A stretch of DNA of 64,000 nt from an uncultured Candidatus Saccharibacteria bacterium (lineage in GTDB: Bacteria > Patescibacteriota > Minisyncoccia > Phycocordibacterales > UBA5272): contig CAZJJX010000006.1 of the NCBI GenBank assembly GCA_964546555.1, positions 545 through 64,544 on the forward strand. The letters are read 5' to 3'. The translations under genes were made by a program, and so were the position numbers. How positions within the stretch are numbered: position 1 is the first letter of the stretch; each line of letters begins with the position of its first letter. Below are positions 6,278 to 45,016 of the stretch, piece by piece. The notes beneath the pieces were generated by a model, which searched no databases, was not told where the DNA came from, and saw only the letters and a list, made by a program, of their open reading frames with translations.

Positions 6278-6348
6278 CTGGGGTACAAGGACTCGAACCT
6301 CGATACTCAGGACCAAAACCTGATGTCCTACCATTAGACGATACCCCA
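6278..6348 (-). tRNA. tRNA-Gln (anticodon UUG)
   Basis: The reverse complement folds as a cloverleaf: TGGGGTA TC GTCT-AATGGTA-GGAC A TCAGG TTTTGGT CCTGA GTAT CGAGG TTCGAGT CCTTG TACCCCA G. CCA is not encoded. Confidence 0.9.
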
Positions 6349-15528: not shown

Positions 15529-16923
15529 CTACTGCTTTCTAACTTCTTGACCTTTTGAGGTATCTTTTACTGTAAATCCATGAGACTCTATCTCACGGCG
15601 TAAGTCATCTGCTAACATATAGTCTTTTTGATTACGAGCGTGTTCACGTTCTTCAAGAAGTGTCTTTACTTCTTCTGGAACAACAATTTCTTCCCTTATC
15701 ACTCTTTCAAGTCCGAGTCCAAGCATGTCACTAAGTGCGATAAGTGTAGTATAGCGATCAACTTCGAGGATTTCTTGGTCTTTCATTAGTTTCCACAGTG
15801 TTGCGATAACCTCAGGTGTAGCAAGGTCTTGAGTGAGTGCATGGTGTGCCTGATGTATATATGATGCATTTACATGCCCATGAGGGGTCTTGTGGTTAAG
15901 GCAGTAGTCTACGAGCTTATGGTATGCAATTGATGCACCATCGAGTGCCTCGTAGGAGAACTGAAGTTCTTTTCTGTAATGCGCGGTCAGCAAAAAGTAA
16001 CGATATGCCATCGGGTCGTAACCTTCTTTTTGTATTGATGTTACCGTTAAAAAGGAGTCATTTGATTTTGACATTTTACCAGTTGTATCTAAGAGGTGAT
16101 TGTTGTGCATCCAGTAGTTCACATAAGGTTTACCTGTCGCGCAAGTGCTCTGTGCAATTTCGTTAGTATGATGCACTGGTATATGTTCGATGCCACCTGT
16201 ATGCACATCAAAATGTTCCCCTAGATATTTCATAGACATCGCGGAACATTCAATATGCCATCCAGGAAACCCTACTCCCCAAGGGGAATCCCACTCCATC
16301 TGACGCTTCTCGTTTTTTGGAGAAAACTTCCACAATGCAAAGTCTGTGATATTTCTCTTCTTAGTGTTTTCTTCGACGCGTGCGCCACTTTTAAGGCCTT
16401 CAATATCTAAATGAGCAAAGTCACCATAGTCTCTAAATTTTGATGTATCAAAATAAATGCCATCATCTATGATTCTGTAGGTGTAACCTTTTTTTTCTAA
16501 TGTTTGAACGAGTGTGATCTGATCTTGTATTGTTTCTGTTGCGCGAGGAAAGTTATACGCATCAAGTGGGATGTTAAGGAGTGTTAGATCGTCAAAATAT
16601 GCTTGAGTGTATTGCTTTGCGATGTCCCATACAGTTTTTCCTTCTCGTCGTCCTCCTTTTTCCATCTTATCTTCACCACTGTCTTGATCATCCACGATAT
16701 GTCCAACATCAGTAATATTGATCACGTGAGTAACGTCGAATCCAGATGAGATAAACATCCTACGGAGCGTGTCTGCAAAAACTGCCGCACGCATATTCCC
16801 AAGGTGTTGATAGTGATACACCGTTGGGCCACAAGAATATATCCCGACATGTCCAGGTTTAAGTGGTGTGAAGGTTTCTAGGGATTTTGTTTTTGTATTA
16901 TAAAGCTTTATCTCGTCGTGCAT
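15529..16923 (-). CDS. cysS: cysteine--tRNA ligase
   Basis: Class I synthetase with CGPTVYHYQHLGNMR (HIGH-type) and KMSKS; CysS-type zinc ligands are present. Confidence 0.95.
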   Translation of the reverse strand: MHDEIKLYNTKTKSLETFTPLKPGHVGIYSCGPTVYHYQHLGNMRAAVFADTLRRMFISSGFDVTHVINITDVGHIVDDQDSGEDKMEKGGRREGKTVWDIAKQYTQAYFDDLTLLNIPLDAYNFPRATETIQDQITLVQTLEKKGYTYRIIDDGIYFDTSKFRDYGDFAHLDIEGLKSGARVEENTKKRNITDFALWKFSPKNEKRQMEWDSPWGVGFPGWHIECSAMSMKYLGEHFDVHTGGIEHIPVHHTNEIAQSTCATGKPYVNYWMHNNHLLDTTGKMSKSNDSFLTVTSIQKEGYDPMAYRYFLLTAHYRKELQFSYEALDGASIAYHKLVDYCLNHKTPHGHVNASYIHQAHHALTQDLATPEVIATLWKLMKDQEILEVDRYTTLIALSDMLGLGLERVIREEIVVPEEVKTLLEEREHARNQKDYMLADDLRREIESHGFTVKDTSKGQEVRKQ

Positions 16924-43227: not shown

Positions 43228-43277
43228 ATTACGTCCAGAGATCTTGAATTACTATTAACCATTAACTATAAACTATC

Positions 43278-43505: not shown

Positions 43506-43524
43506 TGGAGCTATATAAGTAAAT

Positions 43525-43555
43525 AAAAAACTATGTCTTACGACATAGTTTTTTA
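43525..43555 (+). terminator. rho-independent terminator
   Basis: AAAAAACTATGTC-TTAC-GACATAGTTTTTT. Confidence 0.8.
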
Positions 43556-43730
43556 TTCGCGCATCCTGCGTGAACGCAGGAATACCCCATGGCGTCAGCC
43601 TGAGGGATGAATGCGTAACTCATATCGTAAGGTATGAGCAAACAGCAGAGCTGTTTGAAGCCATAATCCAAAGGATTAGGGGACAAGGATACCATGTGGC
43701 GTGAGCCCACGGTGTTTCATTTACTAAAAA
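43556..43730. other. GC-enriched cluster of short hairpins, unassigned (ncRNA or REP-like element?)
   Basis: Consecutive hairpins: CCTGCG-TGAA-CGCAGG, CTCATA-8 nt-TATGAG, AACAGC-AGA-GCTGTT, TAATCC-AAA-GGATTA, ACC.TGTGG-7 nt-CCACGGT. Internal repeat ATACC..ATGGCGT[C/G]AGCC. Confidence 0.3.
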
Positions 43731-43789
43731 GTTTTAATACATAAGAGAAATTTAGTTATCCACAAGAAAATTCTTGTTGTTCTATTGCA

Positions 43790-43807
43790 CTAGAACATTT
43801 GTTCTAG
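43790..43807. promoter_or_regulatory. LexA operator (Cheo-type SOS box)
   Basis: CTAGAACATTTGTTCTAG is a perfect 8+2+8 palindrome containing GAAC-N4-GTTC. It ends 12 nt before the lexA ATG and overlaps TAGTAT. Confidence 0.8.
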
Positions 43808-43819
43808 TATGCTAAAAGT

Positions 43820-44383
43820 ATGAAAGACAAAGAAGTAGTATCAGAATTTTTTATTGAACATAACCGTATGCCAACATACGAAGAGATGAAGTCACTCTTT
43901 GGAGTAGCGTCCAAAAACACCGTCGCCTATAGAGTCAACAAGCTCCTCGAAGAAGGATTCCTTCTGAAAGATGGCACCAAGCTCATGCTCGCAGAGACAG
44001 GATCGGTAATGCGGCTGAGCACAGTGCAAGCAGGATTTCCAACCGCAGCAGATGAGGATGTTGAGACAGAACTACTCTCCCTTGATGACTTCCTGATAGA
44101 ACGAAAACAGAGTACATATATGCTAGAAGTCCAAGGGGAGTCGATGATAGATGCAGGGATATTAGAAGGAGATCTGGTTTTGGTAGAAAGAGGAAGGACG
44201 CCGCGAAGGGGAGATATCGTACTAGCCCTCGTCGAGAATGAATATACACTTAAATATCTCGAAACAGAAAATGGTAAACCAGTTCTTGTTCCCGCAAACA
44301 AAGCATTCAAGAAAATTTATCCGAATCCAAATAAGTTACGCATTGAGGCGGTATTAAAAGCAGTAGTCCGAAAGTACAGGTAA
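43820..44383 (+). CDS. lexA: LexA repressor (S24 peptidase)
   Basis: Winged-helix N-domain, Ala-Gly cleavage site (VQAGFP), GESM (Ser) and TLKY (Lys). Confidence 0.9.
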   Translation: MKDKEVVSEFFIEHNRMPTYEEMKSLFGVASKNTVAYRVNKLLEEGFLLKDGTKLMLAETGSVMRLSTVQAGFPTAADEDVETELLSLDDFLIERKQSTYMLEVQGESMIDAGILEGDLVLVERGRTPRRGDIVLALVENEYTLKYLETENGKPVLVPANKAFKKIYPNPNKLRIEAVLKAVVRKYR

Positions 44384-44566
44384 CAAATTATAGATAAGAG
44401 ACATACAGACACTCAGACCGCTTCGCATACAGACATCAGACATAATAGAAATATCTTAGTTCTGAAACTTTACTCAAGAATTTCAATTTTAAAATACTGT
44501 GAATTTAAAAAATCTACGAATTAGGAATCGCTACAACTAGTAACAATTAACTATTAACTAACAATC

Positions 44567-45016
44567 ATGACAACACCTAACACAACACGCGCAATACTAC
44601 GCATTACAGCAGGAGGGAAGAACACCTCACGTATCAACTACGCTCGTCGCATGTATGCTATCATCAGACGCTACACACCAGAGGCTGCAGTTGGTATGCA
44701 TAATGAATGTTATGCAGAGCTAACCGGTCTTCGCACTTTCTTCAAGATGACATATGCAGAACTCGCAGAGAGTATCGTAAGAGATCTCAAGAAAGAAATT
44801 GGCATCTCTTTTACGATAAATGTTGCAAAAGCAATCGAGTTCGATGCTGTGCGTACGGCTTCTAAAAAGTCAAAGCAAATCTCTACGTACAAAGAAATCA
44901 ATACTCTTTTCAGAGGAGCTTCATTTGTACCTAGAGAAGATAGAACAAGTATCCGTCGTACGCTCCGTGCACGTCGTATTAGATTAAGTGTCCCTTATCT
45001 TGGTAAGGTGGCATAA
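44567..45016 (+). CDS. collapsed Y-family DNA polymerase-like ORF (probable remnant, catalytically incomplete)
   Basis: IRRYTPEAAVGMHNECYAELTG aligns with the Y-family ..RYT..VE..SIDEAYLDLTG motif (D to N). GISFTINVAKA corresponds to v.S.GiA.nk.LAK, and it ends at VPYLGKVA (the IPGVGKV HhH). The N-terminal DxD motif and the little finger are absent. Confidence 0.5.
   Translation: MTTPNTTRAILRITAGGKNTSRINYARRMYAIIRRYTPEAAVGMHNECYAELTGLRTFFKMTYAELAESIVRDLKKEIGISFTINVAKAIEFDAVRTASKKSKQISTYKEINTLFRGASFVPREDRTSIRRTLRARRIRLSVPYLGKVA

What the first reader, a model, noticed from the sequence alone, without database searches (positions are those of the whole stretch)
43790..45016. Perfect SOS box, lexA, and a collapsed Y-family polymerase ORF
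CTAGAACATTTGTTCTAG (GAAC-N4-GTTC, the Gram-positive-type LexA box) overlaps the lexA -10 region. lexA is followed by a 149-aa ORF that aligns to the palm/thumb part of DinB/UmuC-type polymerases. The alignment covers NYARR, RYTPEAAVGMHNECYAELTG versus SIDEAYLDLTG, and an end at VPYLGKVA versus IPGVGKV. The ORF lacks the N-terminal catalytic DxD motif, about 35 aa of the fingers and the whole little-finger domain, and has D to N in the DE pair. It is either the relic of a LexA-controlled translesion polymerase or a retained non-catalytic mini-protein (compare ImuB, which is also catalytically dead). I saw no second SOS box in front of it or in front of the other repair genes in this window.
Basis: partly seen in the sequence, partly recalled or inferred. 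Interest (0 to 1): 0.55.

Follow-up and report, generated by a model that had tools for sequence, protein, structure and literature searches.

The report
Dead mini-polymerase conserved beside lexA
Just downstream of the SOS repressor gene lexA lies a small, strongly conserved protein that is the stripped-down, catalytically dead core of a lesion-bypass DNA polymerase; it kept only the palm and the parent's C-terminal tail, which points to a regulatory job rather than DNA copying in these tiny-genome (CPR) bacteria.

Summary
A perfect palindrome TAGAACATTTGTTCTA (43791-43806) fills the 17-nt spacer of the lexA promoter. lexA (43820-44383) is followed by a 149-aa ORF (44567-45016) that passes Pfam's Y-family (IMS) threshold.

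The ORF is not a relic. It belongs to a family of 194 clusters (90% identity) of about 141-155 aa proteins from Paceibacteria/Parcubacteria. The family is under purifying selection (omega about 0.1-0.3). It sits directly downstream of lexA in 32/32 related loci, each with one conserved operator.

The protein is the palm of a full-length PolY (residues 82-181) plus probably strand beta-1. The whole fingers domain, the thumb, the little finger and the clamp motif are deleted. The catalytic carboxylates are replaced (DxD to T/A, DE to NE).

Its C-terminus is not the thumb HhH. It matches the extreme C-terminal tail (L-x-[IV]-P-[FY]-L-G-x-V) of full-length PolYs. PolYs with that tail are themselves encoded right after lexA in other genomes.

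Best reading: an SOS-induced, non-catalytic derivative that acts through the retained partner-binding tail, on LexA's S24 domain and/or RecA. That mechanism is inferred, not shown. I call it a new variant of a known kind.

The parts
43756..43764 (+). TTATCCACA, a perfect DnaA-box consensus upstream of the lexA promoter
   Evidence: TTATNCACA is present in 24/30 related loci at exactly -26 or -36 from the GAAC of the operator. Background in the same loci is 0.1 per kb. Function was not tested.
43779..43790 (+). Conserved GTTCTA half-site (43779-43784) abutting the -35 hexamer TTGCAC (43785-43790)
   Evidence: TGTTCTATTGCA is the majority sequence in the alignment of 30 upstream regions. Its assignment as the -35 element is inferred from a 17-nt spacing to a TAnnnT hexamer.
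43791..43807 (+). LexA operator TAGAACATTTGTTCTA(G); it fills the whole 17-nt promoter spacer
   Evidence: It is the only perfect copy in the window. It is conserved at the same position in 30/30 loci.
43808..43813 (+). -10 hexamer TATGCT; the ATG follows after 6 nt, so the lexA mRNA is probably leaderless
   Evidence: TAnnnT is conserved directly after the operator. The GAAC-to-ATG distance is fixed at 27-28 nt in all loci. The transcription start is inferred.
43820..44383 (+). lexA: 187-aa repressor with a winged-helix N-terminal domain and a self-cleaving S24 domain (Ala71-Gly72 at 44030-44035)
   Evidence: Pfam Peptidase_S24 hits at E 1e-25. NCBIfam LexA scores 95.7 bits, below its cut-off of 110.95; the UmuD model scores 102.9 bits. 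The AG site, Ser108 and Lys145 are conserved in at least 90% of the 32 aligned sequences. Identity across loci is 70-90%.
44384..44566 (+). lexA-to-mini spacer, 183 nt, with no operator, no terminator-like site and no promoter-like site on the + strand
   Evidence: Shown. The spacer varies from 4 to 367 nt in related loci. Co-transcription is inferred.
44567..45016 (+). 149-aa mini-PolY: a non-catalytic palm-plus-tail derivative of a Y-family polymerase (pI 10.7)
   Evidence: Supported. The AF2 model has mean pLDDT 77, with block means of 82-93 for residues 11-100.
44588..44614 (+). aa 8-16, RAILRITAG: probable remnant of palm strand beta-1, with the DxD carboxylates replaced
   Evidence: hhalign of the N-terminal profile matches praIlHiDgD of full-length PolY (residues 4-16) at E 9e-4. 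AF2 places a strand at residues 10-16 in a beta-alpha-beta-beta-alpha-beta fold. No member has an acidic residue among the six commonest residues at positions 14-17.
44627..44881 (+). aa 21-105: palm core, including N46-E47 (44702-44707) in place of the catalytic D-E
   Evidence: hhalign aligns mini 21-118 with PolY 82-181 at E 1.2e-27. N46 occurs in 122/128 members and E47 in 111/128.
44900..45010 (+). aa 112-148: C-tail inherited from the parent. It holds the strand of the RecA-NT-like (DUF4113) region, a basic linker and the terminal motif R-L-S-V-P-Y-L-G-K-V (44981-45010)
   Evidence: hhalign against the C-tails of full-length relatives gives probability 94%, E 1e-7. hmmsearch works in both directions and beats decoys. 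127/128 alignments end within one residue of both termini. pLDDT is low here.

Best explanation
The 149-aa ORF is a functional member of a conserved 'mini-PolY' family of Paceibacteria (Patescibacteria/CPR). It descends from the Y-family polymerase that sits immediately downstream of lexA in other genomes.

What was lost and what was kept:
- Two internal deletions removed the fingers (about 65 aa) and the thumb, little finger and clamp-binding motif (about 200 aa).
- The palm core remains, with its catalytic carboxylates replaced.
- The parent's C-terminal tail remains.

Expression: the gene is transcribed with lexA from one promoter whose spacer is the LexA operator. It is therefore made when RecA-stimulated LexA self-cleavage lifts repression.

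Proposed action: it cannot polymerise. It most likely works by protein-protein contacts of the retained tail. By analogy with UmuC, whose C-terminal extension docks RecA and whose last about 28 residues bind UmuD', the tail would bind the S24 domain of LexA (intact or cleaved) and/or the end of a RecA filament. That would tune LexA cleavage or RecA activity, i.e. provide feedback on the SOS response.

Shown: homology, domain map, loss of catalytic residues, purifying selection, invariant lexA linkage, conserved operator.
Inferred: co-transcription, damage induction, and every binding partner.
For: Family and selection:
- 194 clusters of about 141-155 aa.
- About 20 representatives at 50% identity, with a clean score gap to 400-aa PolYs.
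- Omega is 0.1-0.3.

Linkage to lexA:
- lexA lies directly upstream on the same strand in 32/32 loci, while all other neighbours vary.
- A single conserved operator is present in 30/30 loci.

Domain map:
- Mini 21-118 matches PolY 82-181 (E 1e-27), and the N-terminus matches beta-1 (E 9e-4).
- The AF2 model is ferredoxin-like, and most of its best Foldseek matches are Y-family polymerases.
- N46 occurs in 122/128 members and no DxD remains.

Tail homology:
- hhalign gives probability 94%, E 1e-7.
- The C-tail HMM hits 128/128 minis against 19/640 decoys, and the alignments are anchored at the C-terminus.

The tail tracks lexA:
- Full-length PolYs with the L-x-[ILV]-P tail have an S24 gene directly upstream in 27/33 cases.
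- PolYs ending ..LLF[IL] have one in 0/6 cases (Fisher p = 3e-4).
- lexA-PolY operons are seen in GCA_001823065.1 and GCA_040384425.1.
- 12/30 parents hit DUF4113.

Literature: the DUF4113 N-terminal part is a RecA-NT-like motif, and the UmuC terminal tail is the major UmuD'-binding site (PMC6511836).
Against: - No interaction was tested.
- The tail motif does not resemble UmuC's own tail in sequence, so the 'binds the S24 partner' step is analogy plus gene linkage only.
- Only the strand part of the RecA-NT-like motif aligns significantly. The helix part does not (E 0.33).
- The profile match for beta-1 is weak (probability 24%).
- The spacer to lexA is up to 367 nt in some loci, so an internal promoter cannot be excluded.
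- A pI of 10.7 is equally compatible with nucleic-acid binding.
Confidence: 0.5

Rival explanations
1. Accessory or regulatory subunit of a full-length Y-family polymerase encoded elsewhere. It would be a detached scaffold that brings partners to the enzyme or competes with it, comparable to ImuB or a stand-alone ImuB-C.
For: - Two loci (L014, L032) carry lexA-mini-PolY with a catalytically intact PolY directly after the mini.
- That PolY type ('Pol IV', ending ..DLLF[IL]) is widespread in Patescibacteria.
- Stand-alone ImuB-C modules next to PolYs are described in PMC6511836.
Against: - Only 2 of 33 loci have a PolY within 6 kb, and none lies in the 64-kb window.
- The mini is linked to lexA, not to the polymerase.
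- The adjacent PolY type is otherwise not lexA-linked (0/6).
- Genome-wide co-occurrence could not be tested.
Confidence: 0.2
2. SOS-induced nucleic-acid-binding protein. A basic RRM/ferredoxin-like domain with a basic tail would bind ssDNA, primer ends or RNA. It could, for example, act as a replication or division checkpoint factor, independent of LexA or RecA contacts.
For: - pI is 10.2-10.7, with 27-31 Lys+Arg.
- The fold is ferredoxin-like, and RRM and designed ferredoxin folds appear among the Foldseek matches.
- The linker is variable but always basic.
- From my own knowledge, not checked here: genes next to lexA in other phyla often encode SOS checkpoint or division inhibitors.
Against: - The parts of a Y-family enzyme that hold DNA (thumb, little finger) are exactly the ones deleted.
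- The most conserved new features are a terminal peptide motif and STYKEIN-LF-G. That pattern is more typical of protein-docking motifs.
Confidence: 0.2
3. Decaying relic (pseudogene fragment) of a LexA-controlled translesion polymerase.
For: It lacks most domains and the catalytic residues.
Against: - The same architecture and length recur in 194 clusters.
- 32 columns are invariant in a 34-sequence alignment.
- Omega is 0.1-0.3 while synonymous sites are saturated.
- The start, the stop and the terminal motif are conserved.
Confidence: 0.03
4. Still an enzyme: a minimal nucleotidyltransferase that uses other residues.
For: E47 is kept in 111/128 members, and several palm residues are invariant.
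Against: - Two of the three metal ligands are gone.
- There are no fingers to bind the incoming nucleotide and no thumb or little finger to hold DNA.
- The Lys of the LAKiAS helix is not conserved.
Confidence: 0.02

Closest known systems
ImuB (catalytically dead Y-family protein of the LexA-regulated imuA-imuB-dnaE2 mutasome)
   Same: It is a Y-family homologue without active-site carboxylates and is under SOS control. It is thought to act as a protein-binding hub through its C-terminal region, which includes a RecA-NT-like motif (PMC6511836).
   Different: - ImuB keeps the complete palm-fingers-thumb-little finger fold, a clamp motif and the ImuB-C domain, and it is encoded with imuA and dnaE2.
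- The mini has only the palm plus a short tail.
- None of 33 loci shows another Y-family gene except L014 and L032, and none of the 10 neighbour families scanned is imuA, dnaE2 or ImuB-C.
UmuD-UmuC (Pol V) operon
   Same: - An S24 autoprotease gene is followed directly by a Y-family gene under a LexA operator.
- The parent PolYs carry a DUF4113-type C-terminal extension followed by a conserved terminal tail.
- In UmuC those two elements bind RecA and UmuD' respectively (PMC6511836).
   Different: - The S24 protein here is a full LexA-type repressor with a DNA-binding domain, not UmuD.
- The downstream protein cannot polymerise.
- The tail motif (L-x-[IV]-P-[FY]-L-G-K-V) differs in sequence from UmuC's tail.
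LexA-linked full-length PolYs with the same tail (for example P0149 in GCA_001823065.1 and P0150 in GCA_040384425.1)
   Same: They occupy the same operon slot after a 187-188-aa LexA (48% identical to the window's LexA for L034). They share the palm sequence signature (RRYTPEVEEYSIDECFAD against RRYTPE..NECFAE) and the terminal tail.
   Different: They are 410-450 aa long, with intact DxD and DE, fingers, HhH thumb, IMS_C little finger and a QxDLF clamp motif.
Small partners of LexA-type repressors (DdrR with UmuDAb in Acinetobacter; phage GIL01 gp7 with LexA)
   Same: They give a functional precedent: a small protein encoded next to, or acting with, a LexA-like repressor that modulates its DNA binding or cleavage. 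The DdrR corepressor appears in the title and abstract of PMC7273328. The gp7 case is from my own knowledge.
   Different: There is no sequence or fold relationship. The analogy is only to the proposed mode of action, which is untested here.

Membership tests
Y-family DNA polymerase (Pfam IMS, PF00817) | Significant sequence match to the catalytic-core profile | tested here: met
   The score is 25.4 bits against a cut-off of 23.2, but the match covers only profile positions 74-138 of 148. hhalign to 55 full-length PolYs gives probability 99.8%, E 1e-27.
Y-family DNA polymerase (functional enzyme) | Three catalytic carboxylates (DxD in strand beta-1, D-E in the hairpin) | tested here: not met
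   Positions aligned to DxD are T/S/A/G. N46 replaces D in 122/128 members. Only E47 is kept.
Y-family DNA polymerase (functional enzyme) | Fingers, thumb (HhH) and little-finger (IMS_C) domains | tested here: not met
   Parent residues about 17-81 and about 182-365 have no counterpart in the mini. There are no IMS_HHH or IMS_C hits, whereas the full-length relatives have them.
ImuB | Inactive but complete Y-family fold, encoded with imuA and/or dnaE2 and carrying an ImuB-C domain | tested here: not met
   The fold is not complete. The neighbours examined in 33 loci are unrelated housekeeping genes such as a GTPase, YchF, TspO, QueA and LeuRS.
Pol V-type (UmuDC-like) module | S24 autoprotease gene immediately upstream of the Y-family gene | tested here: met
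   Seen in 32/32 loci. However, the S24 protein carries a DNA-binding domain and is autoregulated, so it is LexA rather than UmuD.
Pol V-type (UmuDC-like) module | C-terminal extension with the DUF4113/RecA-NT-like motif followed by a conserved tail | tested here: inconclusive
   12/30 parents hit DUF4113. In the mini, the strand plus tail align (E 1e-7) but the helix part does not (E 0.33). The mini itself has no Pfam DUF4113 hit.
LexA repressor (for the upstream gene) | S24 domain with the Ala-Gly cleavage site and the Ser/Lys dyad | tested here: met
   VQAGFP, GESM and TLKYL are conserved in at least 90% of the 32 aligned sequences. Peptidase_S24 hits at E 1e-25.
LexA repressor (for the upstream gene) | Score above the curated equivalog threshold (TIGR00498) | tested here: not met
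   The score is 95.7 bits against a cut-off of 110.95, although the match is full length (residues 11-186 to profile 19-202 of 203). One source names it 'repressor LexA'.
LexA repressor (for the upstream gene) | Palindromic operator in its own promoter (autoregulation) | tested here: met
   TAGAAC-N4-GTTCTA fills the promoter spacer and is conserved in 30/30 loci. Binding itself cannot be tested with these tools.

The most novel reading that the evidence does not exclude
In these reduced genomes LexA would double as the UmuD-like partner. The mini-PolY would be a dedicated SOS effector that bridges or caps the LexA S24 domain and the RecA filament through a polymerase-derived tail. That would be a polymerase fossil re-used as a switch component controlling how fast the SOS response turns on or off. 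If so, the terminal L-x-[IV]-P-[FY]-L-G-x-V motif would be a previously unrecognised S24-binding peptide shared by a large class of LexA-linked PolYs.
Probability: 0.3. Interest if true: 0.8.

Novelty: new variant of a known kind. Interest (0 to 1): 0.62.

Why it matters
- Non-catalytic relatives of translesion polymerases are known (ImuB), but they keep the whole fold. Here evolution cut a Y-family enzyme down to the palm plus the C-terminal tail and then conserved that remnant across a whole bacterial class, always next to lexA.
- This isolates the tail as the functionally important part. It also links the tail statistically to the presence of an upstream S24/LexA gene in full-length enzymes.
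- The result is a concrete, testable hypothesis for an open question raised in PMC6511836: what the conserved C-terminal tails of bacterial PolYs bind outside E. coli.
- It also suggests that LexA may act as the UmuD-like partner in CPR bacteria.
- The family has no NCBIfam model, and the sources call it 'hypothetical protein' or generically 'nucleotidyltransferase/DNA polymerase involved in DNA repair'. The second name is misleading, because the protein cannot be a polymerase.

Tried and rejected
- Rfam scan of the window and of the lexA upstream region found nothing relevant; only a tRNA at 6278-6348 and generic terminator look-alikes.
- A profile of the family against PDB sequences gave no Y-family hit at E<=1, because the profile is too specialised.
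- I first read the mini as a contiguous N- and C-terminally truncated fragment. I revised this after deeper profiles showed a beta-1 match and the tail match.
- I considered F92 and its neighbours as a relic of the QxDLF clamp motif (alignment). I rejected this because position 4 is E/A/Q, the segment is a confident palm helix in the model, and it aligns to the LAKiAS helix.
- I tried to detect co-occurrence of the mini and a full-length PolY on the same contigs by matching contig lengths in a PolY search. There were no matches among the 120 rows shown out of more than 5200, so this was uninformative.
- The one directly relevant paper is not held: Sanchez-Osuna, Barbe & Erill 2017, Environ Microbiol 19:3465, on the Patescibacteria SOS regulon. 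Papers citing it say nothing about this gene. Further literature searches found no description of the family.
- The 10-nt direct repeat CATACAGACA in the lexA-mini spacer is window-specific and is probably chance.
Full report
**What is there**

The sequence CTAGAACATTTGTTCTAG lies at 43790-43807. It is followed by a 187-aa ORF (43820-44383) with a Peptidase_S24 domain (E 1e-25). After a 183-nt spacer comes a 149-aa ORF (44567-45016). That ORF passes Pfam's gathering threshold for the Y-family core (IMS, 25.4 bits against 23.2), but over profile positions 74-138 only.

The extended palindrome TAGAAC-N4-GTTCTA occurs once in the 64 kb. The two 2-mismatch matches are at chance level. Of the other two GAAC-N4-GTTC cores, 46704 lies inside the ychF-like ORF, where it reads F-E-Q-K-F-I. 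15958 lies inside the 464-aa minus-strand ORF 15529-16923. The window holds no RecA and no other Y-family gene.

**The ORF is a conserved family, not a relic**

- A search of 5.8 billion proteins found 194 clusters at E<=1e-3. The 120 best listed are nearly all 141-155 aa, and those that carry an organism name come from Parcubacteria/Paceibacterota/Nomurabacteria genomes.
- An exhaustive profile search of 1.84 billion representatives found about 20 family representatives (>=103 bits; none longer than 212 aa and most 134-151 aa). A clear gap follows before 400-440-aa polymerases (<=82 bits), which match only over their residues about 85-165.
- A 34-sequence alignment has 32 invariant columns.
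- Pairwise dN/dS is 0.09-0.33 wherever dS is not saturated. Against its closest relatives the window gene has pS about 0.6-0.73 and pN about 0.13-0.18.
- The protein is very basic (pI 10.7).

**Linkage to lexA and the operator**

A scan of one genome per species returned 32 loci.
- In all 31 with upstream DNA, plus the window, a LexA orthologue lies directly upstream on the same strand. The other neighbours differ between loci: a methyltransferase, a DsbA-like protein, YchF, TspO, QueA, LeuRS, a GGDEF protein and others.
- The spacer ranges from 4 to 367 nt and never contains a second box.
- In the window the spacer has no terminator-like or promoter-like site on the + strand.
- The operator is present in 30/30 loci, with a fixed distance of 27-28 nt from GAAC to the ATG.

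An alignment of the upstream regions shows the following layout:
- a -35 hexamer TTGCAc;
- a 17-nt spacer that is exactly the operator;
- a -10 hexamer TAnnnT;
- the ATG 6-7 nt later.

LexA would therefore occlude RNA polymerase, and the mRNA is probably leaderless. Both points are inferred.

LexA keeps the Ala-Gly cleavage site, Ser108 and Lys145. It is 70-90% identical across loci whose mini is only 45-80% identical.

**Domain map**

With profiles of 128 minis and 55 full-length relatives, hhalign aligns mini 21-118 to polymerase residues 82-181 (probability 99.8%, E 1e-27).
- INYSRRMYAIIRRYTPE..NECFAELTGL aligns to sYslYSxRMfxIvRRyTPxVEEYSIDECFADiTGl.
It is not the upstream motif followed by a 35-aa gap.

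The N-terminal RAIIHIT aligns best to strand beta-1 (praIlHiDgD; E 9e-4 for the N-terminal profile alone, low probability).

The AF2 model has mean pLDDT 77, with block means of 82-93 for residues 11-100. Its topology is strand 10-16, helix, hairpin, helix, strand, helix, which is a complete ferredoxin-like palm. Most of its best Foldseek matches are Y-family polymerases (Rev1, Dpo4, Dbh, Pol iota, Pol IV), with weak E-values, plus small ferredoxin/RRM folds.

So the fingers (about 65 aa) were excised and beta-1 was probably kept. The carboxylates are gone:
- T/S/A/G stand at the DxD positions;
- N46 occurs in 122/128 members;
- E47 is kept in 111/128;
- the Lys of the LAKiAS helix is not conserved.

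**The C-terminus is the parent's tail**

Many of the closest full-length relatives end in ...K-x-L-x-[IL]-P-[FY]-L-G-x-V-x. Examples are RLNIPFLGEVR, RLPLPYLGEVG, KFGLPFLGRVK and HLGLLSLGKVT. The mini ends RIRLSVPYLGKVA.

- An HMM of mini residues 100-149 ranks 14 real polymerases above the best of 318 decoys, always at their extreme C-terminus.
- The reverse HMM, built from the last 85 residues of 24 polymerases, hits 128/128 minis against 19/640 decoys. 62 minis score better than the best decoy, and 127/128 alignments end within one residue of both termini.
- hhalign of mini 112-148 against the polymerase tail gives probability 94%, E 1e-7. It aligns N-T-L-F-R-G-A-S-F with the strand t-I-f-l-a-S-S-l, then the linker, then the terminal motif.
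- The preceding helix (STYKEIN against l..vD.in) aligns collinearly but not significantly (E 0.33).

The second deletion runs from about residue 182 to the C-terminal extension. It removes the thumb, the little finger and the QxDLF clamp motif.

**What the tail is associated with**

- 12 of 30 full-length relatives hit DUF4113 over the region vD.ln.kyG..ti.laSS.
- Timinskas & Venclovas (PMC6511836) showed that the N-terminal part of DUF4113 is homologous to RecA's N-terminal oligomerisation motif. They proposed that it docks PolYs onto RecA. [quoted passage not shown]
- P0149 (GCA_001823065.1) and P0150 (GCA_040384425.1), both tail-bearing, lie 13 and 145 nt after a 187-188-aa S24/LexA gene.
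- Among 52 distinct complete PolYs from a metagenome scan with enough upstream DNA, 27/33 with an L-x-[ILV]-P tail have an S24 gene directly upstream.
- In the same set, 0/6 of the '..DLLF[IL]' type do (Fisher p = 3e-4). Of the 13 sequences left unclassified by the strict pattern, 8 have an upstream S24 gene, and several end in motifs such as ..IPFLGDAV.
- The '..LLF[IL]' type is the common 'Pol IV' of Patescibacteria. It is the type found after lexA-mini in L014 and L032.

The mini therefore occupies the slot, and carries the tail, of the lexA-linked polymerase class.

**Mechanism**

Shown:
- a damage-type operator in the only evident promoter;
- an autocleavable LexA;
- a conserved, catalytically disabled palm-plus-tail protein always encoded behind it.

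Inferred:
- Co-transcription and SOS induction.
- The protein acts by binding, through the tail, the S24 domain of LexA (by analogy with UmuC and UmuD') and/or RecA (via the remnant of the RecA-NT-like motif). That would modulate LexA cleavage or RecA filament activity.

I put about 0.9 on 'functional non-catalytic PolY derivative co-regulated with lexA'. I put about 0.35-0.4 on the specific tail-to-LexA/RecA mechanism.

Rivals are a subunit or regulator of a separate polymerase (supported by the two three-gene loci) and a basic nucleic-acid binder or checkpoint factor. The pseudogene and residual-enzyme readings are essentially excluded.

**Comparison and novelty**

It works most like ImuB: a dead Y-family hub under SOS control. 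It fails ImuB's defining features, which are the complete fold, ImuB-C and imuA/dnaE2 neighbours.

It formally belongs to Pfam IMS, but it lacks every feature of an active polymerase.

No NCBIfam model covers it. The survey of bacterial PolY diversity discarded sequence fragments. I found no description in the searchable literature. The key Patescibacteria SOS paper could not be read, so prior mention there cannot be excluded.

I classify it as a new variant of a known kind.

Noticed in passing
window 43756-43764 (+); the same element in L001-L032 upstream of lexA: A perfect DnaA-box consensus, TTATCCACA, lies upstream of the lexA -35. TTATNCACA is present in 24/30 related loci, always on the same strand and at exactly -26 or -36 from the operator's GAAC, one helical turn apart. 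Several of the remaining loci show one-mismatch variants such as TTATCCCCA. Background in these loci is 0.1 per kb. This suggests DnaA or replication-status input into the lexA-mini promoter.
   Followed up: partly
window 43779-43784 (+): An extra conserved GTTCTA half-site abuts the -35 hexamer, giving GTTCTA-N6-TAGAAC-N4-GTTCTA. TGTTCTATTGCA is the majority sequence of the 30 aligned upstream regions. It may be a third LexA half-site or part of the promoter.
   Followed up: no
window 43808-43822: The -10 hexamer ends 6-7 nt before the lexA ATG in every locus, and no Shine-Dalgarno-like sequence lies between them. lexA is probably translated from a leaderless mRNA.
   Followed up: partly
window 43556-43725 (+): A GC-rich 170-nt stretch lies between the terminator hairpin of the upstream 75-aa gene (43518-43554) and the lexA promoter. 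It folds into six hairpins (MFE -67.7 kcal/mol, z = -5.6 on +, -3.3 on -). No Rfam family matches at E<=10. A partial copy (74% over 85 nt) lies on the other strand about 2 kb from lexA in L030. It is a candidate unannotated small RNA or mobile structured element.
   Followed up: partly
window 44533-44563 and 43251-43275; L018 172-200, L021 7760-7789, L025 5979-6007, L029 5966-5993: An A/T-rich leader of the type AACTAGTAACAATTAACTATTAACTAACAATC recurs just upstream of start codons of several genes in the window and in related loci. It may be a lineage-specific translation-initiation region.
   Followed up: no
L033-L036, L038 and many of L039-L118: A large class of full-length Y-family polymerases from metagenomes is encoded directly after a LexA-type S24 gene and ends in ..R-K-R-L-x-[IL]-P-x-[LF]-x-x-V. 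The Patescibacteria 'Pol IV' type ending ..DLLF[IL] is not lexA-linked. The tail-to-S24 association (27/33 against 0/6) may define the accessory-protein binding site of these enzymes.
   Followed up: partly
window 43820-44383 and LexA orthologues in L001-L032: LexA is unusually conserved, at 70-90% identity (median 81%) over its whole length. In the same genomes the adjacent mini is 45-80% identical and synonymous sites are saturated. Its S24 domain scores slightly better against the UmuD model (102.9 bits) than the whole protein does against the LexA model (95.7 bits, below cut-off).
   Followed up: partly
L034 4131-4146: In the lexA-PolY locus of GCA_001823065.1 the only SOS-type palindrome (GTGAACGCTTGTTCAC) lies about 290 nt upstream of lexA, before a small 64-80-aa ORF. 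The operon there may therefore start with an extra small gene.
   Followed up: no
window 44402-44411 and 44426-44435: A 10-nt direct repeat, CATACAGACA, occurs twice, 24 nt apart, in the lexA-mini spacer. It is not conserved in related loci and is probably chance.
   Followed up: partly
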